DNA of 64,000 nt from a virus (IMGVR_UViG_3300021964_012561:50637-114636); one strand, 5' to 3'. Shown: positions 17,987-35,732, counted from the stretch's first letter. Numbers and translations are program-made. Notes: generated by a model from the sequence alone, not told the origin.

Positions 17987-19609
17987 TTGGCAAAAGGAAC
18001 AAAAAGATCACAAGTTCAAGAAATAATCAAATGTGGAAAAGATCCTAATTATTTTTTTAAGCATTATCTTAAGATACAGCATCCAGTGCGTGGATTAATT
18101 CCATTTGATACGTTTCCTTTTCAAGACGATTGTGTTGATCAATTTAACGAGCATCGCTTTAACATTGTTTTAAAGTCTAGGCAGTTAGGTTTATCAACAC
18201 TTGTTGCTGCATATTCAGTATGGATGGCGATATTTCAACGTGAAAAAAATATTCTTATTATTGCAACAAAACTAGCAGTTGCACAAAACTTTATTATTAA
18301 AGTTAAAACAATGATCAGGTCTTTGCCAAAATGGTTGTTAATTCCTGAAATAGTTGCTAATAATAAACAAATAGTTCAATTCAATCACGGATCTCAAATA
18401 AAGGCAATACCAACTTCAGAAGATGCAGGTCGTTCAGAAGCATTGTCGTTACTTATTGTAGACGAGGCAGCTTTTGTTAGAAACTTTGATACAATTTGGA
18501 CAGGTATTTATCCAACAATTTCTACCGGTGGGCGTGTTATTATTCTTTCTACGCCTAATGGTGCAGGAGGTCAATACTACAAATTATATGCAGATGCTGA
18601 AGCAGGCCTAAATGAATTTAATGCTATAAAATTACCTTGGGATTGTCATCCTGAGCGTGATAAAGAATGGTTTGATAAAACCACAGCAAACATGTCTCAG
18701 CGTCAAATTGCGCAAGAATATCTTTGTGATTTTACTTCATCTGGCGAAACTTTTCTTGACCCTAATTCTCTAGAGTGGATGAGACAATGTGTCAAACCTC
18801 CTATTGCAAGAGAAGGCTTAGGTAATTCTGTATGGATATGGAAATATCCTTTGACAGAACACAATTATATACTTTCAGCTGACGTTGCAAGAGGAGACTC
18901 AAAAGACTACTCAACATTTCACATTATTGATGTTGACGAGGGTGAAGTTGTTGCTGAATATAAAGGAAAAATTAGGCCTGATAACTTTGCAACTCTTTTA
19001 AATGAATGGGGACTAAAATACAATAAAGCTTTAATGTGCCCTGAAAATAATAGTTACGGCTTTGGAACTATTCTTAAATTACTTGAATTTAAGTATCCTA
19101 GAATGTATTATCGTAAACAATCAAAAGGAGCCTATCTTGGCGGCTATGTACCTGCAGCTGCACCTGAAAGTGCTGGTTTTAATACCAATGGTAAGACAAG
19201 AAACACAATGTTAGGAAAACTTGAAGAAGTAATAAGAAATAAACAGCTTTACGTTCCATCAAGTAGGTTTTATGAAGAAGTTAAAACATTTACTTGGCAA
19301 AGCGGAAGAGTTCAAGCTAAAAAAGGTTTTAATGATGACCTGGTTATGTCACTAGGTATTGGTACTTGGTTGTATGATGCATCAGCAGACTATAGTAATT
19401 CATCTAAAAAGATTAATGATGCAATGTTAAATGCCTTCAGTACCAAAAGAAAAGAATATAGTGAAACTCCTGATCAAGTCTTAAGTGACACAACTGTTTT
19501 ACCTGTTTTTTCTTCAAGAGGAAATGATAAAGGTATTATTAAAACAAATTTAAATAAAGCATTAAAACGAAGTAAAATACCACCAGGTATGGAATGGATA
19601 TTAAAATAA
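17987..19609 (+). CDS. terL: Terminase large subunit (T4 gp17-like)
   Basis: PFQ adenine motif, Walker A KSRQLGLS, Walker B LIVDEAAF, STPNG, QEYLCDF; nuclease ADVARG and NDDLVMS. Confidence 0.95.
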   Translation: MAKGTKRSQVQEIIKCGKDPNYFFKHYLKIQHPVRGLIPFDTFPFQDDCVDQFNEHRFNIVLKSRQLGLSTLVAAYSVWMAIFQREKNILIIATKLAVAQNFIIKVKTMIRSLPKWLLIPEIVANNKQIVQFNHGSQIKAIPTSEDAGRSEALSLLIVDEAAFVRNFDTIWTGIYPTISTGGRVIILSTPNGAGGQYYKLYADAEAGLNEFNAIKLPWDCHPERDKEWFDKTTANMSQRQIAQEYLCDFTSSGETFLDPNSLEWMRQCVKPPIAREGLGNSVWIWKYPLTEHNYILSADVARGDSKDYSTFHIIDVDEGEVVAEYKGKIRPDNFATLLNEWGLKYNKALMCPENNSYGFGTILKLLEFKYPRMYYRKQSKGAYLGGYVPAAAPESAGFNTNGKTRNTMLGKLEEVIRNKQLYVPSSRFYEEVKTFTWQSGRVQAKKGFNDDLVMSLGIGTWLYDASADYSNSSKKINDAMLNAFSTKRKEYSETPDQVLSDTTVLPVFSSRGNDKGIIKTNLNKALKRSKIPPGMEWILK

Positions 19610-19619
19610 AGGCAAATAA

Positions 19620-21680
19620 ATGGCAAAAGAAAATAATGGAAATTTATTTAGTAAATTAACCAGACTCTTCAGGAGTGGTCCTGTTGTCAAACGAAAATTG
19701 GCTAATAAAACATCATCAAAAACGTCGTCTGCGTTTGAACAGTTTAGAAAAAATCAATCACAGGTTTATTCAGCAGCTATGTCTGCATATGGTACTTATG
19801 ATAGAATGGCAAGATATTCAGATTTTAGTGAAATGGAGTATACTCCTGAAATTGCATCTGCATTAGACATTTATTCAGAAGAATCTGTAGCTGCGGATGA
19901 AAACGGAAAAACTTTGCACATATACTCTGAGAATTCAAAGATTAAAGAATTGTTAACAGAATTGTTTTATGATACACTAAACATTGAATTTAACATGTCA
20001 TCATGGATTAGAAATTTAGTTAAATACGGTGATTTCTTTTTGTTCAATGACGTACATCCAGACCAAGGCGTTATTAACGCCTATCCTTTGCCAATTTCAG
20101 AAATAGAGAGAGAAGAAGGCTTTGATCCTAACGATCCATTAGCAGTTAGATTTAGGTGGATTACACAAGGCAATCAAGTTTTAGAAAATTGGCAAGTATC
20201 ACACATGAGATTGTTAGGTAACGATGCATTTTTACCGTACGGATCTTCAGTTTTAGAACCTGCTCGTAGAATTTGGAGACAATTAATCTTACTTGAAGAC
20301 GCAATGATGGTAATGCGAATTGTACGCGCACCGGATCGCAGGGTATTCTACATTGATGTTGGTAACGTTCCGCCTGAAGATATACCAAACTATATGGAAC
20401 AAGCACAAAGTAGTCTTAAAAGATCAGGCGTGGTTGATAAAAATAATGGTAGAGTTGATTTGCGTTATAATCCTCTTTCTATTGATGAAGATTATTTTAT
20501 TCCAGTTAGAGGTGGAGATAGTGGCACTAAGGTAGATAGTGTGGCGGGTCAAGGCATATCAGGCGAAGTAAATGATGTTGAATATATTCAAAAGAAGCTT
20601 TTTGCAGCATTAAAAATACCAAAGGCATATCTTGGGTATGACGAAGGGTTAGGAGCCAAAGCAACACTATCACAGGAAGACATTCGCTTTAGTAGAACTA
20701 TAGCAAGGATTCAGAGGACTATTTTGTCCGAGATGAACAAAATTGCAATTGTTCACCTTTATTGTAATGGTTATACTGACGAAGACTTAGTTGATTTTAC
20801 TTTAAAACTTTCTAACCCATCAACAATCGCTCAACAACAAAAATTAGAACTTTTTAAGTCTAGGTTTGATGCAGCATCAACAGCATTAGGTACTCCAGGG
20901 TTGGTTGACAGAACTTGGGTTCAAAAAAATATTATGCGACTCACAGATGATGAAATTAAATCAGTAGTTAAGGGCAGAATCAAAGACAAACTATTGGATT
21001 TAGAAGTTGATGCAACTCAATTAGAGCAACCTGAAGGACCGGAAAATCCTGATGTTGGAGGAACGACAGACGTAGGCGGCGGATTTGGTGGCTTAGGAGA
21101 CCTAGGTGGTGGTATGGACTCACCAGCTCCAGCTTCCCCACCTGCAGATGACCCTATAGGATCTTTGGACTTAGGAGCATTATCAGAAAAAAATAAATTA
21201 AGCTTAAAAGACGAACTAGTACCGATTAAAGTTAATCAAAGAATAAGCTCTATTTTATCTGAAATTAAAAATGTCGATACAGAAGAAAACAAAGACGAAG
21301 ATGATAATTTAACAGAATTAGAAAAATTTCAAAAAGAAAAAACAGAATCAGATAAAAAGAAACGAGAAAAGAAAAACAAATACGAGCGAAAGAATCATCT
21401 ATTTGCTGATAACCACTTTAGTGAGTATCAAAGAAATCGCTTAAGAGAAAAAGATGTTTTTTACGATGTAAAACATGAATTAAAATCTGACGTGAAGTAT
21501 AAACCAGAAAATATAATGCCTGAAAATAATGACGTATTCAATGTTCAAGAATACTTAGATAATAACATAACTGTTAATGCAGAATTCACCAATAGAATTA
21601 AATCAACATTAAGCAAGCTTGACAAAAGTTTAATTTCTGAAAATATTGATGAGGACAATAAAGATAATGACAAAACATAA
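19620..21680 (+). CDS. Portal protein (T4 gp20-like) with long low-complexity C-terminal extension
   Basis: RIWRQLILLEDAMMVMRIVRAPDRRVFYIDVGN, EDYFIPVRGG and LFAALKIP motifs; follows terminase. Confidence 0.95.
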   Translation: MAKENNGNLFSKLTRLFRSGPVVKRKLANKTSSKTSSAFEQFRKNQSQVYSAAMSAYGTYDRMARYSDFSEMEYTPEIASALDIYSEESVAADENGKTLHIYSENSKIKELLTELFYDTLNIEFNMSSWIRNLVKYGDFFLFNDVHPDQGVINAYPLPISEIEREEGFDPNDPLAVRFRWITQGNQVLENWQVSHMRLLGNDAFLPYGSSVLEPARRIWRQLILLEDAMMVMRIVRAPDRRVFYIDVGNVPPEDIPNYMEQAQSSLKRSGVVDKNNGRVDLRYNPLSIDEDYFIPVRGGDSGTKVDSVAGQGISGEVNDVEYIQKKLFAALKIPKAYLGYDEGLGAKATLSQEDIRFSRTIARIQRTILSEMNKIAIVHLYCNGYTDEDLVDFTLKLSNPSTIAQQQKLELFKSRFDAASTALGTPGLVDRTWVQKNIMRLTDDEIKSVVKGRIKDKLLDLEVDATQLEQPEGPENPDVGGTTDVGGGFGGLGDLGGGMDSPAPASPPADDPIGSLDLGALSEKNKLSLKDELVPIKVNQRISSILSEIKNVDTEENKDEDDNLTELEKFQKEKTESDKKKREKKNKYERKNHLFADNHFSEYQRNRLREKDVFYDVKHELKSDVKYKPENIMPENNDVFNVQEYLDNNITVNAEFTNRIKSTLSKLDKSLISENIDEDNKDNDKT

Positions 21681-22506: not shown

Positions 22507-23103
22507 ATGAAATTACTTACAGAGTGGTGTGCATTTAACATAACAAAAGAAATGATTAACGAGTCTAGAGAACGTCATGGAGGAAAATTAGTTTTAAAAG
22601 GTCCGATTCAAAAGTCTAACACTTTAAATCAGAACGGAAGAATCTATCCTAGGGCGATACTTGAAAGAGAAATTATGAATTATCAAAAATTAATTCAAGA
22701 AAATCGTGCAATGGGTGAATGCGATCATCCTGATTCTTCTGTTGTTGAACTTAAAAATGTTTCACACGTAGTAAAAGAAGCTTATATGCAAGGTGACATT
22801 GTATACGGCGCAATAGAAATACTAGATACACCTAGCGGAAAAATTATTCAATCACTAATTGAAAGTGGCGTTACTTTAGGTATTTCTTCAAGAGGCGTAG
22901 GGTCTACACAAAAACAAGGAAATACACAAATAGTACAAGATGATTTTCAGTTAATTTGTTTTGACATGGTATCAGAGCCTTCTACTCCTGGCGCATTTGT
23001 AATGAGAGAGGGAAAAGAAATTTCTCAAGACGAAATTAATAAGATTTTTAACAAAACTGATCGGGTTAATAGAATTTTTAATGATATATTAAACTGGGAG
23101 TAA
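22507..23103 (+). CDS. Prohead maturation protease (T4 gp21-like)
   Basis: NQNGRIYP, GECDHP (catalytic His), GISSRGVGS (catalytic Ser), DMVSEPSTPGA. Confidence 0.95.
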   Translation: MKLLTEWCAFNITKEMINESRERHGGKLVLKGPIQKSNTLNQNGRIYPRAILEREIMNYQKLIQENRAMGECDHPDSSVVELKNVSHVVKEAYMQGDIVYGAIEILDTPSGKIIQSLIESGVTLGISSRGVGSTQKQGNTQIVQDDFQLICFDMVSEPSTPGAFVMREGKEISQDEINKIFNKTDRVNRIFNDILNWE

Positions 23104-26559: not shown

Positions 26560-28530
26560 ATGTCTAGATCATTTAGTTTAAATCAACTGACAGAAGGAAT
26601 CAGAGAACGTCATTTAGGCGCTGATACCTCACGTCTTGTGTCAAAATGGACACGTACCGGTCTTCTTCGAGGACTTAACGAAAACAAGCGCGAAAATATG
26701 GCTCGCATGCTTGAAAATCAAGCGTCTCAACTTCTTCGTGAGGCAAACACCTTAGGAAGCGGTGGATCTGCTAATAACATCGATGGATTCTCTAACATCG
26801 CATTTCCAATCGTTCGTCGTGTATTCGGTGGATTGGTTGCTAATGAATTGGTTTCCATTCAGCCTATGTCACTTCCAAGTGGACTTCTTTTCTACTTAGA
26901 TTACACATACGGTAGTGATATTCACGGTGAAGATGCAGGTGCAGGAAACGCTGCTGATACATCTTCAGCAAACATTTATGGAAAAGGTGATTCTCTTTAT
27001 GGTAATCCTTCTGGAAGTTCTATCCGAACAGGTGCAAATGCAGTTGGCGGTATGTACGACTTAGCTGGTAGTGGTTATTCTTTAGTACATTCTTCCTCAA
27101 ACATTCTTGCTGATAATGATGCAGCTCTAAACGATACTTTCCATGTACACAACATTGCTTCTGCATGGGGTGCATACAATACGGCTGGAACATTTACTAT
27201 TGGTAATTCTTTAGAAATTACTAATAATAAAAACCTTAAATTAATTCAGTATGATCCACAACTTATCAAAGAAATTTCAGAATACAGTACATCTTTTTCT
27301 GTTGGCTTCTTCGAGTTAGGTGAAACTATCAAATCACAATTTGACAGAACCAATGCAAAATCTTGGGGTCTTGTACAACATTTAGGTGCGGTAACTGCTA
27401 TCGATACAAATCTTTTGTCTTTTGATCAAGATGCTTCTGGTAATGCAATTACTGACTCTTCAGGAAACGCTTACCAAGATGGTACGGGTGTTTTTAACCT
27501 TAGAAGACTTAATCAAATTGGTACTTGGAACGCTTCTACCAAGGTTTGGACACCGGACGTGACTGGTGATCACTTATTAGCAGTTTTTAGAGGTGCACCA
27601 GCTGATACAACAGGTCGTACAGCGGCAGTTGAATTGCAACTAGTTGCTCCGGTACTTGATCAAGTATCAGCAGAAGGTGGAACCGGTGGAGTTGTAACTA
27701 TTCCTTCTTTCGAATCTGGATTTTCTGCTGGTTCTACCGGAAATGTTGCTCCAATTATACCTGAAATCGACATCAAGATCGAGTCTATCGCGGTAACAGC
27801 TCAGACACGTAAGTTAAGAGCTCGTTGGTCTCCAGAACTCGCTCAAGATCTTAATGCTTATCATTCAATGGACGCTGAGGTTGAATTGACCCAGATTCTT
27901 TCTGAGCAGATTGCATTAGAAATTGATCGTGAAATTCTTAATGACCTTCTTGTTGAAGCAAAAGGTGCTAACTACTACTGGTCACGTGCTCCTGGTAAAT
28001 TCGTTAAGAAAGACACCGGTGCAGTTGCTTCTAGTACAATTGGTCCTAACTTTACTGGTACAGTTCGCGAATGGTACGAAACTCTTGTTGAAACCATTAT
28101 CGACGTTGCTAATGAAATTCATAGAAAGACTCTTCGTGGAGCTGCTAACTTTATCGTGGTATCACCTGAAGTTGCAACTATTTTCGAAGCATCAGTTCTT
28201 TACAAGCCAAGCATCAAAATTGATGGACAAGGACAGACATCTGCTCCTTTCTCTATCGGTGCAGAGTCGATTGGATCTCTTTCTAACAGATTTACTGTTT
28301 ACAAAGATCCTTACTTCCCACGCAACAAGATCCTTGTAGGATACAAAGGTGGATCATACCTTGAGTCTGGATACGTCTATGCTCCTTATGTACCACTTAT
28401 CGTTACTCCTACAATCTTCGCACCTGAAGATTTCACACCAAGAAAAGGTGTAATGACTCGTTACGGTAAGAAAATGGTACGTGCCGATTTCTACGGAACA
28501 GTTACATGCCTTGACATGGACATTATCTAA
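26560..28530 (+). CDS. Major capsid protein (T4 gp23-like)
   Basis: PIVRRVF..ELVSIQPMSLPSGLLFYL, TRKLRARWSPELAQDLNAYH, EIDREI, YAPYVPL, GVMTRYG; highly biased codon usage. Confidence 0.97.
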   Translation: MSRSFSLNQLTEGIRERHLGADTSRLVSKWTRTGLLRGLNENKRENMARMLENQASQLLREANTLGSGGSANNIDGFSNIAFPIVRRVFGGLVANELVSIQPMSLPSGLLFYLDYTYGSDIHGEDAGAGNAADTSSANIYGKGDSLYGNPSGSSIRTGANAVGGMYDLAGSGYSLVHSSSNILADNDAALNDTFHVHNIASAWGAYNTAGTFTIGNSLEITNNKNLKLIQYDPQLIKEISEYSTSFSVGFFELGETIKSQFDRTNAKSWGLVQHLGAVTAIDTNLLSFDQDASGNAITDSSGNAYQDGTGVFNLRRLNQIGTWNASTKVWTPDVTGDHLLAVFRGAPADTTGRTAAVELQLVAPVLDQVSAEGGTGGVVTIPSFESGFSAGSTGNVAPIIPEIDIKIESIAVTAQTRKLRARWSPELAQDLNAYHSMDAEVELTQILSEQIALEIDREILNDLLVEAKGANYYWSRAPGKFVKKDTGAVASSTIGPNFTGTVREWYETLVETIIDVANEIHRKTLRGAANFIVVSPEVATIFEASVLYKPSIKIDGQGQTSAPFSIGAESIGSLSNRFTVYKDPYFPRNKILVGYKGGSYLESGYVYAPYVPLIVTPTIFAPEDFTPRKGVMTRYGKKMVRADFYGTVTCLDMDII

Positions 28531-32310: not shown

Positions 32311-32400
32311 ATGTTTGCAAGAAGTTACTGTTTAGTTTATGTGATACTTTAAAGTGTTAGGTGATAATTATTAAGGACATATATATTGGAGGTTACAGAG

Positions 32401-32751
32401 ATGTCTCAGTTAAACAGAAAACAGTTGAGAAAAATGCTTTTAAAAGAATTTAAAATGATTGGAATGGCTAGTCCGCATGTAGGAATGTTGGGAAGTTCAC
32501 CATTTCAGCAAAATGATCATGGTTGTGATGCATGTGGAATGTCACCTTGTGGATGTGACGAGCATGAAGATCATGATCATGGACAATTTAGTATGACAGT
32601 TGGAAAAGCTGATTATGTAGGTGGTCATAAAGGACAAGTTTCAAAAGAAGATTGTTGCAAAGCTGTGCTTTGTCTTATTGAATGCTGTGATTGTCCTGAA
32701 ACGAAAGCATTACTTCAGGAATGTTGCGAAGATATTCTTTCTCGTTGTTAA
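32401..32751 (+). CDS. Leader-bearing Cys/His-rich (metallothionein-like) protein
   Basis: SD GGAGG; MSQLNRKQLRKMLLKE; CDACGMSPCGC, HEDHDH, CC..C..CCDC..CC..C. Confidence 0.7.
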   Translation: MSQLNRKQLRKMLLKEFKMIGMASPHVGMLGSSPFQQNDHGCDACGMSPCGCDEHEDHDHGQFSMTVGKADYVGGHKGQVSKEDCCKAVLCLIECCDCPETKALLQECCEDILSRC

Positions 32752-32759
32752 TTTTATAG

Positions 32760-33149
32760 ATGTATCTAACTCGTCGCAATCTTCGATCATTGATTCTAGA
32801 ATCTATCAGTGAGATTTTAAGTGAAGCTGATCCGAAAGTAGGCACAGGTAAAAAGCCAAAAGGATCAGGTCGAAGATTGTATACAGACGAAAACCCAAAA
32901 GATACAGTTCGTGTTAAATTTTCAAATGTTTCAGATATTAGAAAAACATTTTCTAAAAAAAGTTTTAAGTCAAAATCACATAAGCGTCAATCACAAATAA
33001 TTAATTTGGTACACCAAAGGGTTCGAGCAGCATATAAAAATGCAAAAGATCCAAAAGTTAAAAAACGTTTAAAAAAAGCTTATGATTATGCTAAAAAAAG
33101 AAAAGAAGCAAGCAAAAGAAAAACAGAAAGAATGAGAAAGAAAAAATGA
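32760..33149 (+). CDS. Leader-bearing highly basic protein
   Basis: MYLTRRNLRSLILESISEILSE; GTGKKPKGSGRRLYTDENPKDTV; Lys/Arg-rich. Confidence 0.7.
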   Translation: MYLTRRNLRSLILESISEILSEADPKVGTGKKPKGSGRRLYTDENPKDTVRVKFSNVSDIRKTFSKKSFKSKSHKRQSQIINLVHQRVRAAYKNAKDPKVKKRLKKAYDYAKKRKEASKRKTERMRKKK

Positions 33150-33523
33150 AACTAACAAGAGCGTTTTTAAGAAATTTAATTAAAGAAGTTAAAGGTGACA
33201 AGTCTTGCAAAAAAGCAACACAAGATCCTGAGTACAATAAAAAGAAAAAAGAAATTGCAGCTTCAAAAAAAGACGTTGCATATGGTCCTTCTAGCAGGCC
33301 TGAATTAAAAGATTATGCAAAGAAAGGCAAACTTTGTGGTAATTGTGGTGCATTTGATGTAACAAAAGAAATGCAAAATTGCATGAATGTTAAATACCCA
33401 AAAAAAATCGACGCTAACTTTTTAATTAAAGGTAAAAAGAAAGGCTACTGTTTAATGCATGACTTTATGTGTTCAGGTCATAAGACTTGTTTGACTTGGG
33501 GTTCAGGCGGTCCGAAAAAATGA
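33146..33523 (+). CDS. Leader-bearing Cys-cluster protein (putative Fe-S or Zn binding)
   Basis: MKLTRAFLRNLIKE; CGNC..C..GYCLMHDFMC....C..W; ATGA overlaps on both sides. Confidence 0.7.
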   Translation: MKLTRAFLRNLIKEVKGDKSCKKATQDPEYNKKKKEIAASKKDVAYGPSSRPELKDYAKKGKLCGNCGAFDVTKEMQNCMNVKYPKKIDANFLIKGKKKGYCLMHDFMCSGHKTCLTWGSGGPKK

Positions 33524-33870
33524 AACTTACTAGGCAAAAATTAAAATCGCTTATTCTTGAAATCTTTTTACAAGAAAAAAAGAAACGTAAAAAGCGTAAA
33601 AAGAAAAAGATTGATTATAAAAAAGCCTATAAAAAATACCACAGTTCAAAAAAAGCTAAACAAGAGCGTGCACAAAGAAATGCTGCTGGCCGAAAATTAA
33701 AAAAGATGGGTGTTAAAATACCTAGTGGTTATGAAATAGATCATAAAAATCCGATAAATAGTGGTGGATCAAATGATTTGTCTAACTTAAGAATAATTCC
33801 TCGTGGTAAAAATAGAGCTTTAGGACAAAAAATAACAACTGCAAAAAGAAAAAAGAACGGGAGTTATTAA
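33520..33870 (+). CDS. Leader-bearing HNH endonuclease-like protein
   Basis: ATG 33520 overlaps the upstream stop; MKLTRQKLKSLILE; EIDHKNPINSGGSNDLSNLRIIPRGKNR. Confidence 0.8.
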   Translation: MKLTRQKLKSLILEIFLQEKKKRKKRKKKKIDYKKAYKKYHSSKKAKQERAQRNAAGRKLKKMGVKIPSGYEIDHKNPINSGGSNDLSNLRIIPRGKNRALGQKITTAKRKKNGSY

Positions 33871-35097
33871 ATGAAACTTACCAGAAGACAATTAAGAAAA
33901 TTAATATTAGAACAGATTAGCAATACTACATTTAAAGATGCTGAAGAGTCTGGAGTAATTCCCGAACCGGAGCATAGTACAGATCCTTACCCAGGAAAGA
34001 TAAAGTTTCCTGGTCATTCTGCAGCTGATGCAGAGCATAGAAGAGCAACCGATTTTATGAATCCTGAATATAAAGCTACACCTTTAGAACGTCAAAGAAT
34101 TAAGAATAAGGCATATGGAAATTATGTTAAAAACTTACAACAAGGTATGGAAAAAGGGGACGCTGAGCGTTTGTATGATGCACAATCTAAAGGATATCCG
34201 GACTACCTCACTATGGAGCGAGATTTAGGTAGAAAAGAAGCTTACTCTTTCCACAGCTACAACGATATGGAATTAGATCAAAAAACAAGAGAAGAGTTAG
34301 CTGCAGAATTTCCTGACATGGATTTTACAGATGTGCAACCTAGCGTTGATCTTAAATTAAGTAGCATGATAAAAAAGTTTAGAGACGAGAGTCCTGGTGG
34401 CAGAACAACAGTTTATAAACTTAACAGTTTTATTAGAGATCTAGTAGCAACTGACATATCAAAACAAGATACTGAAGTTGGAGAATTTATAGCTGCTAAT
34501 CGACCAAATTTTCTTAAGGATTATCAAGAAAAAGGTTATTATAAGGACACAAAGCTAAATGAAAATAAATTTACAAGAAAAGATTTAAGAAGCTTAATGA
34601 ACGAAGAGTTAAAAAGATTGTCATATGTCAGTAAAGAACAAGGACATACATACGGGATTGAACATTTACCCGATCAATATGATCAGAAAAAAGCAGACGA
34701 TATAATAGGACACACCTGACTGACTCATGTTCGGAAGAAGGGTTCTTCCTTAAATGAAGTTGGTTTTGTTCTTTGGCATTCCTTAAATGAAAGTGGTCAT
34801 GTTGCAATTTATGATGTTGAATGGCCTAACGGAACAATTGAAAGAAACATACCTGCACGTCTTTTAGAAAAAGTAAAAGATAGTAATGATAGTGTTGATG
34901 AACATGATGAGCATGGAGTTGTAGGTCATGAAGAAGACTCACTGTTAGGCGAAAGAAAATATAAAAAAAGAAAGAAGAAAAAGAAGTCAACAAAGAAAAA
35001 GCCTAAGTATTGGTATCTAGGTGGTTATGGAATAGACCATGATCATGATTTTGCTGATTTTGATGGAGACTTCGGCGGAGATGGAGGCGGAGAATGA
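33871..35097 (+). CDS. Leader-bearing protein with in-frame UGA at 34717-34719; candidate selenoprotein (408 aa with read-through, 282 aa without)
   Basis: Frame stays open 125 codons past the TGA and ends in an ATGA overlap with 35094; context GHT-U-LTHV; hairpin right after the UGA. Confidence 0.7.
34723..34760 (+). promoter_or_regulatory. Candidate bacterial-type SECIS element
   Basis: GGAAGAA(34733-39)-GGG-TTCTTCC(34743-49) perfect stem; lower stem TCAT/ATGA; G-containing loop starts 20 nt after the UGA. Confidence 0.65.
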
Positions 35098-35732
35098 AAA
35101 TAACAAGAAAAAATCTTAACATACTGATAGAAAGGTACTTAAAAGAGTCAGATGAAAAAACAGTGCCAGGCGATAAATTCATTGACATACTAGATAAAAA
35201 GCAAAAAAAGCAAGAAAAAAACATACATGCTGTGACAGATTTTAGAAAAGGCAGTGATAGGGGTCAATTTCCTCCATTGACGTTTGGTCCAGGAGTGGAC
35301 GATGAAGGTAATTTAGAGGGTGGTAAATTTACAACTGTCCATGATTATCACGAACCTGACCCATATGATCATGCTGCTGTTAGAAGATACAAAAAACAAC
35401 ACTATTTAGGTCCTGATGATAAGTCCGTAGATGATCCTGAAATTACAAGAATTGGCTTAGAAGACGATGAAGATACTGAAGAGTCTCCTTTTGGAACACA
35501 ATATTCTTTAGATGCTACAGATCCACAATTTAGAATGGATGATAGGACTGTAGAAGATGATGGTTTTACCGCACACAGCGATGATGACTTTCACATGGAA
35601 GACGAGTACGATGAAGATTATGAAGAATCTGAAGATTATACAGAAGAAGATACTCTTTATGATATAGACGATGACAGTGAAGATGATGGTTTGATTGCAA
35701 AAATTAGAAAGTTTTTTTCTGGAAAGAAATAA
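35094..35732 (+). CDS. Leader-bearing highly acidic protein
   Basis: MKITRKNLNILIERYLKE; Asp/Glu-rich C-half; SD GGAGG. Confidence 0.75.
   Translation: MKITRKNLNILIERYLKESDEKTVPGDKFIDILDKKQKKQEKNIHAVTDFRKGSDRGQFPPLTFGPGVDDEGNLEGGKFTTVHDYHEPDPYDHAAVRRYKKQHYLGPDDKSVDDPEITRIGLEDDEDTEESPFGTQYSLDATDPQFRMDDRTVEDDGFTAHSDDDFHMEDEYDEDYEESEDYTEEDTLYDIDDDSEDDGLIAKIRKFFSGKK

What the first reader, a model, noticed from the sequence alone, without database searches (positions are those of the whole stretch)
33871..35097. Candidate phage-encoded selenoprotein: in-frame UGA with a SECIS-like hairpin
Seen: the ORF track stops at TGA 34717-34719, leaving a 374-nt gap in an otherwise tightly packed operon. 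The same frame continues without a stop for 125 codons: (GHT)U-LTHVRKKGSSLNEVGFVLWHSLNESGHVAIYDVEWPNGTIERNIPARLLEKVKDSNDSVDEHDEHG..KKRKKKKK..DFGGDGGGE. It ends at TGA 35095-35097 in an ATGA overlap with the next gene, like its neighbours. The extension has no in-frame ATG. A perfect GGAAGAA-GGG-TTCTTCC hairpin with a lower TCAT/ATGA stem follows, with its loop 20 nt after the UGA. Established: bacterial SECIS elements lie just 3' of the Sec UGA inside the CDS and have a G-containing apical loop read by SelB. From memory (unverified), marine T4-like phages carry an H-x-C-x-x-H-V..H..YDV.F..G.E.N.P family with Cys at this position. Inference: a His/Sec metal- or redox-active domain made using host SelABCD. 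I know of no characterised phage selenoprotein.
Basis: partly seen in the sequence, partly recalled or inferred. Interest (0 to 1): 0.95.

Follow-up and report, generated by a model that had tools for sequence, protein, structure and literature searches.

The report
Phage head-protein gene encoding selenocysteine
A gene in the head-gene block of this uncultured marine T4-like phage has an internal UGA "stop" that every related phage sequence keeps where cyanophage relatives have cysteine, always followed by a co-varying RNA hairpin, so it most likely encodes selenocysteine, which I found reported for no virus of bacteria.

Summary
ORF 33871-34719 stops at TGA 34717, and the same frame runs on for 125 codons to TGA 35095.

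The TGA is not an error or a pseudogene. All 88 distinct related sequences keep it, and four other public sequencing runs show it unchanged. Codons on both sides evolve under protein-level selection.

Thirteen nt after the UGA lies a 17-nt hairpin: a 7-bp stem and a 3-nt loop that starts with G. It is fully paired in 87 of 88 contexts. There are 13 stem variants, and three divergent subfamilies have unrelated hairpin sequences with the same geometry.

The "Trp" that database homologues show at this site comes from gene calling with genetic code 4. Distant full-length homologues, including 179 cultured cyanophage records, have Cys (TGT/TGC) there and no hairpin.

TGA is a normal stop elsewhere in this genome, and no suppressor tRNA, tRNA-Sec, selB or selD was found in these phage records. 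This is the standard signature of selenocysteine inserted by a bacterial SECIS (the mRNA hairpin that directs it).

The main gap is that the host, and so its Sec machinery, is unknown.

Earlier notes of this scan describe what appears to be the same family on other genomes.

The parts
33871..35097 (+). Whole recoded gene: 408 codons with UGA (Sec) at codon 283, ending at TGA 35095 in an ATGA overlap with the next gene
33871..33912 (+). N-terminal leader MKLTRRQLRKLILE, shared by the neighbouring genes; probable capsid-targeting propeptide ending in an I-L-E protease-type site (inferred)
   Evidence: Peptidase_S77 prohead protease at 22507-23103
34564..34608 (+). Internal second copy of the leader (NKFTRKDLRSLMNEE). 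In many relatives the Sec module is a separate gene that starts here with Met.
34717..34719 (+). In-frame UGA, read as selenocysteine (inferred), within the invariant motif IIGHT-U-LTHV
   Evidence: TGA in 88 of 88 distinct related contexts; Cys in distant homologues; unchanged in 4 independent runs
34720..34732 (+). 13-nt spacer. The first base is C (UGA-C) in 84 of 88 contexts; the +1 Leu codon is always CTN, never TTR.
34733..34749 (+). 17-nt SECIS-like hairpin: stem GGAAGAA/TTCTTCC (34733-34739 with 34743-34749), loop GGG (34740-34742)
34726..34872 (+). Predicted five-strand SH3/Tudor-like beta-barrel starting just after the Sec site (pLDDT 75-85)
34711..34779 (+). Family-wide conserved His residues around the site: His 34711-34713 (invariant), His 34726-34728 (at least 90%), His 34777-34779 (invariant)
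   Evidence: alignment A5
34903..34914 (+). His-rich motif after the barrel (HDEH here; H-x-H in most relatives)
34957..35094 (+). Lys-rich tract followed by an aromatic, acidic and Gly-rich tail ending GGGE. Otherwise unrelated leader proteins carry the same tail module.

Best explanation
The gene 33871-35097 is one reading frame in which UGA 34717 is decoded as selenocysteine. The 17-nt hairpin 13 nt downstream acts as a bacterial-type SECIS. During infection the host's SelB, carrying Sec-tRNA(Sec), would bind it and deliver Sec to the ribosome in competition with release factor 2. The UGA-C context is a weak termination signal.

The residue sits in the motif H-x-U-x-x-H, just ahead of a small SH3-like barrel, with further conserved His residues nearby. 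It is probably a metal ligand or a redox centre.

The protein carries the leader shared by its neighbours in the head-gene block, and a T4-type prohead protease is encoded nearby. It is therefore probably loaded into the capsid and processed there.

Shown: the conserved UGA, the hairpin with covariation, the Sec/Cys pairing, and the standard genetic code. Inferred: SelB dependence, selenium incorporation, capsid packaging and the chemistry of the site.
For: 1. TGA is at the same codon in all 88 distinct related contexts from IMG/VR and metagenomes. These were found with patterns that do not depend on the site. No TGG, TGT or TGC occurs within this subfamily.

2. Invariant residues with free synonymous variation lie directly on both sides (IIGHT / LTHV), so one polypeptide spans the UGA.

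3. The hairpin is fully paired (7 of 7) at a fixed 13-nt spacing in 87 of 88 contexts. There are 13 stem variants. Compensatory changes occur at two pairs (AU/GC/GU and CG/AU). Synonymous entropy is about zero in the stem codons.

4. Divergent TGA subfamilies (L168, L171, L173/L174) have unrelated hairpin sequences and different encoded residues. They share the 13-nt spacer, 7-bp stem and 3-nt loop starting with G.

5. Distant homologues have Cys at the site:
- at least 20 representative proteins;
- tblastn matches to a Cys-form query in 179 cultured cyanophage records, with the site read as Cys in the four records inspected;
- hhalign of the Sec set against the Cys set gives 98.5% probability, E 1.7e-15;
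- against P-SSM7 PSSM7_192 it gives 96.1%.

6. Cys forms have no hairpin: 2-5 of 7 pairs, local fold -1.6 kcal/mol or weaker.

7. The geometry fits the bacterial SECIS rule of 16-37 nt from UGA to the apical loop (PMC10778597). The requirement for G early in the loop is from my memory of bSECISearch. The geometry is also close to the E. coli 17-nt minihelix 11 nt from UGA (PMC8659212).

8. The genetic code is standard. TGA ends 15 of 85 ORFs, and this is the only such site in 114 kb here and in 236 kb of a relative.

9. Contigs of four independent runs show no other letter at 34717-34719.
Against: The host is unknown, so there is no evidence that it has selA, selB, selC and selD. None of these genes, and no tRNA-Sec, is in the phage records searched.

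The hairpin lacks the bulged U of the E. coli element, and its 3-nt loop has G-U only in some variants. SelB binding is therefore inferred from geometry alone.

No Rfam family matches, although bacterial SECIS elements are poorly represented there.

No protein-level or selenium data exist.

In the alignments used for hhalign the site was written as Cys, which favours that one column slightly.
Confidence: 0.8

Rival explanations
1. Programmed stop-codon read-through. The weak UGA-C signal, helped by the downstream hairpin, is occasionally read by a near-cognate tRNA (Trp, or Cys or Arg). This would give a fixed ratio of a short product ending in GHT and a long product, as with the Q-beta A1 protein.
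For: The UGA-C context is conserved in 84 of 88 contexts. No Sec machinery was found in the phage records and the host is unknown. Phage structural genes often use recoding to set product ratios (established knowledge).
Against: The UGA lies inside the most conserved motif of a single domain, not at a domain boundary.

In stand-alone versions the short product would be only a 51-aa leader plus half a domain.

Homologues have Cys specifically at this position, never Trp or a variable residue.

The hairpin starts 13 nt after the UGA. That suits a protein-binding SECIS, and is further than the 5-9 nt spacing typical of structures acting at the ribosome entry channel (established knowledge; inference).
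Confidence: 0.12
2. Alternative genetic code or phage-encoded suppressor. TGA is read as Trp (code 4) in these phages, as the database translations with W suggest.
For: Many database proteins of the family show W at the site.
Against: The same proteins also read the gene's terminal TGA as W (they end ...GGGEWK), which shows code-4 gene calling on short contigs.

TGA ends 15 of 85 long ORFs here, with short extensions.

There is only one in-frame TGA site in 114 kb and in 236 kb.

No tRNA with a UCA anticodon occurs in G000 or among the tRNAs of three large relatives, one of them rated complete.
Confidence: 0.02
3. Broken gene or sequencing/assembly error: a TGG or TGY codon mutated or misread to TGA.
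For: A single base change from TGG, TGT or TGC gives TGA.
Against: TGA is present in 88 of 88 distinct contexts from many samples, down to about 40% protein identity. Purifying selection acts downstream. Four independent runs agree.
Confidence: 0.01
4. Two genes: termination at UGA followed by re-initiation of a separately translated downstream protein.
For: Neighbouring genes are translationally coupled by ATGA overlaps.
Against: No in-frame ATG, GTG or TTG is available. The codons directly after the UGA (L-T-H-V) are invariant at the protein level. The +1 codon is GCG in some relatives, which cannot start translation. In Cys forms the domain is continuous across the site.
Confidence: 0.03

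Closest known systems
Bacterial selenoprotein genes with an in-ORF SECIS bound by SelB (prototype E. coli fdhF; reviews PMC8659212, PMC10778597)
   Same: In-frame UGA followed by C. A 17-nt stem-loop lies inside the coding sequence a fixed short distance downstream (13 nt here, 11 nt in fdhF). The loop G residues sit at about position 24 counted from the U of UGA (G23 in fdhF). Cys-containing homologues lack the hairpin.
   Different: The gene belongs to a phage, not a cell. The stem is a perfect 7 bp without the bulged U17. The loop has 3 nt (GGG/GGA/GUC/GGU) rather than the fdhF loop with G23-U24. The protein is not a known selenoprotein family. Binding by SelB is untested.
Cyanophage proteins of PHROG 764 / 22379 / 11470 (labelled 'cytitidyltransferase' or hypothetical; e.g. 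P-SSM7 PSSM7_192, Synechococcus phage ACG-2014d Syn7803US59_154)
   Same: Same small domain: H-x-C ... H-[ST]-L ... G ... YD[VI] ... NVP ... LE ... H-x-H (hhalign 96%). Also found in T4-like marine phages.
   Different: These have Cys (TGT/TGC) at the site and no hairpin. Their N-terminal parts differ, and their hosts are cyanobacteria. The window protein itself scores below threshold against these PHROGs.
T4 internal proteins (IPI-III) with a capsid-targeting sequence cleaved by the gp21 prohead protease
   Same: Short conserved N-terminal leader ending in a hydrophobic-x-Glu site. Tandem small genes lie in the head module. A gp21-family protease (PF03420) is encoded nearby.
   Different: The leader sequence is unrelated to the T4 one (from memory: MKTYQEFIAE). 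Packaging and cleavage are not shown here. The protein carries two leader copies.
Q-beta A1 read-through protein (UGA read by tRNA-Trp)
   Same: A phage structural gene with an internal UGA that must be passed to make the long product.
   Different: In Q-beta the stop lies between the coat domain and an extension, and any inserted residue serves. Here the UGA replaces a conserved Cys inside a domain and is paired with a SECIS-type hairpin.

Membership tests
Bacterial SECIS-dependent selenoprotein gene | In-frame UGA conserved among orthologues, with coding selection continuing downstream in the same frame | tested here: met
   TGA in 88 of 88 distinct contexts. There are invariant residues and free synonymous sites on both sides.
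Bacterial SECIS-dependent selenoprotein gene | Homologues with Cys aligned to the UGA | tested here: met
   At least 20 Cys forms among 1.84 billion representative proteins. tblastn matches in 179 cyanophage records, with Cys confirmed in the four inspected. hhalign gives 98.5% and 96.1%.
Bacterial SECIS-dependent selenoprotein gene | Stem-loop just 3' of the UGA, with the apical loop 16-37 nt from the UGA (PMC10778597) and G among the first loop bases (bSECISearch rule, from memory) | tested here: met
   20 nt from UGA to loop. Loops are GGA 47, GGG 37, GTC 3 and GGT 1.
Bacterial SECIS-dependent selenoprotein gene | Hairpin maintained by compensatory change, and present only with UGA | tested here: met
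   13 stem variants. Four unrelated stem sequences share the same geometry. Cys forms show only 2-5 of 7 pairs.
Bacterial SECIS-dependent selenoprotein gene | E. coli-type SelB contacts: bulged U17 and G23-U24 in the loop (PMC8659212) | tested here: not met
   The stem is perfect with no bulge. G-U is adjacent only in the GGG-U, GUC and GGU variants. This is expected if the host's SelB differs from that of E. coli.
Bacterial SECIS-dependent selenoprotein gene | selA, selB, selC and selD available in the translating cell | not testable with these tools
   The host is unknown. There is no selB, selD or tRNA-Sec in G000 or in four to five large related phage records. There are no relatives in GTDB genomes.
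Bacterial SECIS-dependent selenoprotein gene | Selenium shown in the protein | not testable with these tools
   This needs 75Se labelling or mass spectrometry.
Programmed UGA read-through (Q-beta A1 type) | Stop between functional units, with the identity of the inserted residue unimportant | tested here: not met
   The UGA lies inside the invariant H-x-U-x-x-H motif of one domain, and homologues have Cys there.
Stop-codon-reassigned phages (TGA as sense, code 4 or 25) | Many in-frame TGAs across genes, usually with a suppressor tRNA | tested here: not met
   There is one site per 114 kb or 236 kb. TGA ends 15 of 85 ORFs. No UCA-anticodon tRNA was found.
T4-type capsid-targeted internal proteins | Conserved N-terminal leader ending in a hydrophobic-x-Glu site, plus a gp21-family prohead protease in the genome | tested here: met
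   The leader is on 33146, 33520, 33871 and, as an internal copy, at 34564. PF03420 is at 22507-23103, E 2e-25.
T4-type capsid-targeted internal proteins | Protein found inside capsids and cleaved after the leader | not testable with these tools
   This needs virion proteomics.
PHROG 764 / 22379 / 11470 (cyanophage Cys forms) | Significant match to the family profile | tested here: inconclusive
   The window domain gives no PHROG hit at E 0.01 or better. Cys forms P0168, P0177, P0248 and P0249 do hit. The link rests on the profile search and hhalign.

The most novel reading that the evidence does not exclude
A widespread family of marine T4-like and jumbo phages packages a selenocysteine-containing, His-rich metal or redox protein into the capsid, made with the host's Sec machinery. 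This would make selenium a component of phage particles. It would also mark the still unknown hosts as Sec-decoding bacteria, and phage fitness would then depend on selenium supply.
Probability: 0.55. Interest if true: 0.9.

Novelty: new variant of a known kind. Interest (0 to 1): 0.82.

Why it matters
Selenocysteine recoding is known in cells and in a few viruses of animals. I found no description of a selenoprotein encoded by a virus of bacteria. A 2026 review of prokaryotic selenoproteomes does not mention phages or viruses at all, and the motif is absent from the GOS selenoprotein supplements.

If true, this has four consequences:
- Phages exploit the host's SelB/SECIS system for a probable virion protein.
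- Gene callers systematically split or mistranslate the family. Public databases hold it as halves, or with Trp.
- The UGA/Cys split gives a genomic marker for whether a phage's host can decode Sec.
- The domain, with a conserved H-x-U/C-x-x-H centre on a small barrel, is a new uncharacterised family whose chemistry can be tested directly by comparing the Sec and Cys forms.

Tried and rejected
- tblastn and megablast of the read-through protein and of 10 kb of DNA against 50,697 phage records found no match. The Sec subfamily has no cultured representative there.
- Pfam and PHROGs on the window protein gave nothing.
- An Rfam scan of 34600-34900 gave only chance snoRNA hits.
- I first read the Trp in 27 of 27 database homologues as refuting Sec. 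I withdrew this when the DNA of all loci showed TGA and the same proteins read the terminal stop as W.
- The second long TGA extension in the genome (337 codons after genome position 25155) is just the next gene starting in the same frame.
- Host inference failed. The family has no relative in GTDB genomes. A phage sugar aminotransferase gave one 59% match, on a Phycisphaeraceae MAG contig, which is uninformative.
P0140 found no IMG/VR relative.
The codon behind 'W' was therefore checked only for the subfamilies recovered from IMG/VR (L171, L173, L174). It was not checked for P0132, P0140, P0197 or P0206.
- The AlphaFold model is only moderate (pLDDT 60) and poor around the Sec site. Foldseek hits are weak (E above 0.07), so only 'SH3/Tudor-like barrel' is claimed.

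Full report
**The observation**

The window is part of a 114,636-bp IMG/VR virus record, which CheckV rates 28% complete. The phage has T4-type head genes:
- large terminase, 17987-19609;
- portal, 19620-21680;
- Peptidase_S77 prohead protease, 22507-23103;
- Gp23-type major capsid protein, 26560-28530.

The closest cultured capsid protein is that of Flavobacterium phage immuto, at 45.6% identity.

ORF 33871-34719 ends at TGA 34717. The same frame stays open for 125 more codons to TGA 35095, which overlaps the next gene's ATG. The extension has no Met and no alternative start. The hairpin GGAAGAA-GGG-TTCTTCC lies at 34733-34749, 13 nt after the UGA.

**First test: what do homologues have at the site?**

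A search with the second half of the protein found 106 relatives. All 27 full-length ones showed Trp at the site.

However, about 17 other hits end exactly at ...IIGHT, and about 20 begin just after the hairpin. Several of the full-length proteins also end in ...GGGEWK, which means the gene's real terminal TGA was read as W too.

The DNA settled the matter. All 36 related IMG/VR loci have TGA at the site. The 'Trp' therefore comes from gene calling with genetic code 4 on short contigs.

I then searched with an alignment of only the part downstream of the hairpin, so that neither the site nor the hairpin could bias recovery. All 116 further loci from metagenomes and IMG/VR again have TGA. One of them (L168) has an 8-codon insertion after it.

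Pooled, there are 88 distinct 105-nt contexts, all with TGA. Contigs from four public runs other than the probable source sample show no other letter at 34717-34719. Error and recent pseudogene are excluded.

**One polypeptide spans the UGA**

In 32 distinct sequences the residues I-I-G-H-T before the UGA and L-T-H-V after it are invariant or nearly so, while their third codon positions vary freely. This is selection on protein sequence on both sides, starting at the codon next to the UGA. The +1 codon is GCG in some relatives and there is no conserved start codon, so re-initiation is not an option.

**The hairpin**

On the 32-sequence alignment the 7-bp stem is paired in every cell. Two pairs show changes on both sides (AU 20 / GC 10 / GU 2, and CG 18 / AU 14). 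A third pair alternates between GU, AU and GC.

These changes alter the encoded residues in a coordinated way (RKKGSS, KRKDSA, KRKGSS). Synonymous entropy is zero or near zero in the stem codons: only AAG, only GGT, only GCT. This is in a genome of 32% G+C, and flanking codons vary freely.

Over all 88 contexts:
- 87 have 7 of 7 pairs at the same 13-nt spacing;
- there are 13 stem variants;
- the loops are GGA, GGG, GTC or GGT.

Three divergent subfamilies carry hairpins of unrelated sequence that encode different residues: AGCTGGG-GTC-CCCAGCT, AGCTGAA-GTC-TTCAGCT and AGTGGAA-GGT-TTCTACT. All have the same 13-nt spacer, 7-bp stem and 3-nt loop beginning with G.

The base after the UGA is C in 84 of 88 contexts. 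The Leu codon there is always CTN, although TTA is the common Leu codon elsewhere.

**Cys homologues**

A profile of the domain was searched against 1.84 billion representative proteins. It found distant full-length homologues with Cys exactly at the site: GHSCATHV, KHDCATHV, VHDCPKHV, FHACASHV and others, at least 20 in all.

Many of these carry the same N-terminal leader. Others belong to cultured cyanophages: a Cys-form query matched 179 cyanophage records. The four inspected (Synechococcus phage ACG-2014d, Prochlorococcus phage P-SSM7 gene PSSM7_192, and the AG-345 single-cell viruses) have Cys.

Profile-profile comparison aligns the UGA with this Cys:
- 98.5% probability, E 1.7e-15, against the Cys alignment;
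- 96.1% probability against the P-SSM7 protein.

The Cys codons are TGT or TGC. At the hairpin position these genes form only 2-5 of 7 pairs and have essentially no fold.

Across the Sec and Cys forms, His two residues before the site and the His of the WHSL motif are invariant. His three residues after the site and an H-x-H motif after the barrel are conserved in at least 90%.

**Excluding a changed code or a suppressor**

TGA ends 15 of 85 long ORFs in this genome, with short extensions. The only other long extension is the next gene lying in the same frame.

A scan for a TGA with open frames on both sides plus a hairpin finds only this site in the 114-kb record. In a 236-kb relative, the family's gene is the only hit in a coding frame.

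There is no tRNA in the record. The tRNAs of three large relatives, one rated 100% complete, include none with a UCA anticodon. No tRNA-Sec, selB or selD was found.

**Mechanism**

The combination is the accepted signature of bacterial selenocysteine recoding:
- a conserved in-frame UGA;
- Cys in homologues;
- a covarying stem-loop that appears only together with the UGA;
- an apical loop 20 nt from the UGA, within the bacterial 16-37 nt range (PMC10778597).

The hairpin has 17 nt, like the E. coli minimal element, which lies 11 nt from the UGA (PMC8659212). It differs in having no bulged U and a 3-nt loop, so I do not claim an E. coli-type element in detail.

With 13 nt of spacer the hairpin would sit just outside the ribosome's mRNA channel when the UGA is in the A site. 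That suits a protein-binding element rather than a mechanical roadblock (inference).

The decoding must use host SelA, SelB, SelC and SelD. This is the untested step, because the host is unknown.

One observation is consistent with host dependence: the Cys forms sit in phages of Prochlorococcus and Synechococcus. From memory, those hosts do not decode Sec; I did not check this here. A preprint reports that Pelagibacter lacks selC, whereas Actinomarina, another abundant low-G+C estuarine bacterium, has the full machinery (10.64898/2026.04.03.716425). I draw no host assignment from that.

**What the protein is**

The gene lies in a run of tandem, coupled genes (32386-35732). Most begin with MK[LI]TRxxLRxLIxE, and this gene carries a second internal copy at 34564. 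In many relatives the Sec module is a separate gene that starts at that point, or it is fused to other N-terminal modules.

Given the Peptidase_S77 protease nearby, the leader is probably a capsid-targeting propeptide cleaved after Glu, as in T4 internal proteins. This is inferred, not shown.

AlphaFold gives a five-strand SH3/Tudor-like barrel right after the Sec site (pLDDT 75-85) and low confidence around the site itself. Fold matches are weak.

After the barrel come a His-rich motif, a Lys-rich tract and an acidic, Gly-rich tail. Unrelated leader proteins carry the same tail. A His/Sec metal or redox centre is the most likely role of the site. This rests on conservation alone.

**Novelty**

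The searchable literature gave no phage-encoded selenoprotein:
- two full-text searches found nothing relevant;
- a 2026 review of prokaryotic selenoproteomes contains no mention of phage or virus;
- the GOS selenoprotein supplements do not contain the motif.

The Cys forms fall in PHROGs 764, 22379 and 11470, without a known function and with no Pfam family.

Earlier notes of this scan (e1-5388806, e1-5388821, e1-5997729, e1-5362015) describe what appears to be this same family in other genomes, with the same conclusion. I treated them as leads and re-derived the Cys pairing here.

**Verdict**

- selenocysteine via a SECIS-type hairpin: about 0.8;
- hairpin-assisted read-through by a standard tRNA: about 0.12;
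- the remaining alternatives are small.

Noticed in passing
window 32386-35732 (starts at 32760, 33146, 33520, 33871, 35094; internal copy at 34564): Tandem, translationally coupled small genes share an N-terminal leader MK[LI]TRxxLRxLIxE. A Peptidase_S77 prohead protease lies at 22507-23103. This looks like a capsid-targeting and cleavage tag on unrelated cargo proteins.
   Followed up: partly
window 33487-33870: A leader-bearing 127-aa protein with a weak HNH-endonuclease match (phrog_4590, E 9e-18; Pfam HNH below cut-off). In some relatives the same HNH-like module is fused directly behind the Sec domain (P0069, P0077).
   Followed up: no
database proteins P0002-P0010, P0108-P0117 and others: Public protein collections hold this family either split at the UGA or translated with code 4, with W at the Sec site and at the true stop (...GGGEWK). 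Homology searches therefore wrongly suggest a conserved Trp.
   Followed up: yes
window 34957-35094; P0105, P0106: The Lys-rich tract plus aromatic, acidic and Gly-rich tail ending GGGE is a separate module. It is also found on otherwise unrelated leader proteins.
   Followed up: no
L037:630-993 (G003, 284-kb relative): A related jumbo phage encodes a tmRNA with tag peptide ANDNVEYDYALAA, besides eight tRNAs. This is a possible clue to the host.
   Followed up: no
window 26560-28530: The major capsid protein is unusually long (656 aa). Only its C-terminal part matches the Gp23 family. The best cultured matches are Flavobacterium phage immuto (45.6%) and Microcystis phage Mel-JY01.
   Followed up: no
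genome G000:C1:24516-26171 (before the window): A 213-aa ORF ends at a TGA followed by 337 open codons in the same frame. This is simply the next gene (its ATG lies two codons later), not recoding.
   Followed up: yes
window 34697-34777: In contigs of four estuary or marine runs the summed depth rises several-fold just over the UGA-hairpin segment. This is consistent with many co-occurring relatives sharing this conserved stretch.
   Followed up: no
L175 (G000:C1:19052-20167) and L178: The phage's DegT-type sugar aminotransferase has its only close GTDB match (59% identity) on a 33.8-kb contig of a Phycisphaeraceae MAG. Whether that contig is cellular or viral was not examined.
   Followed up: no
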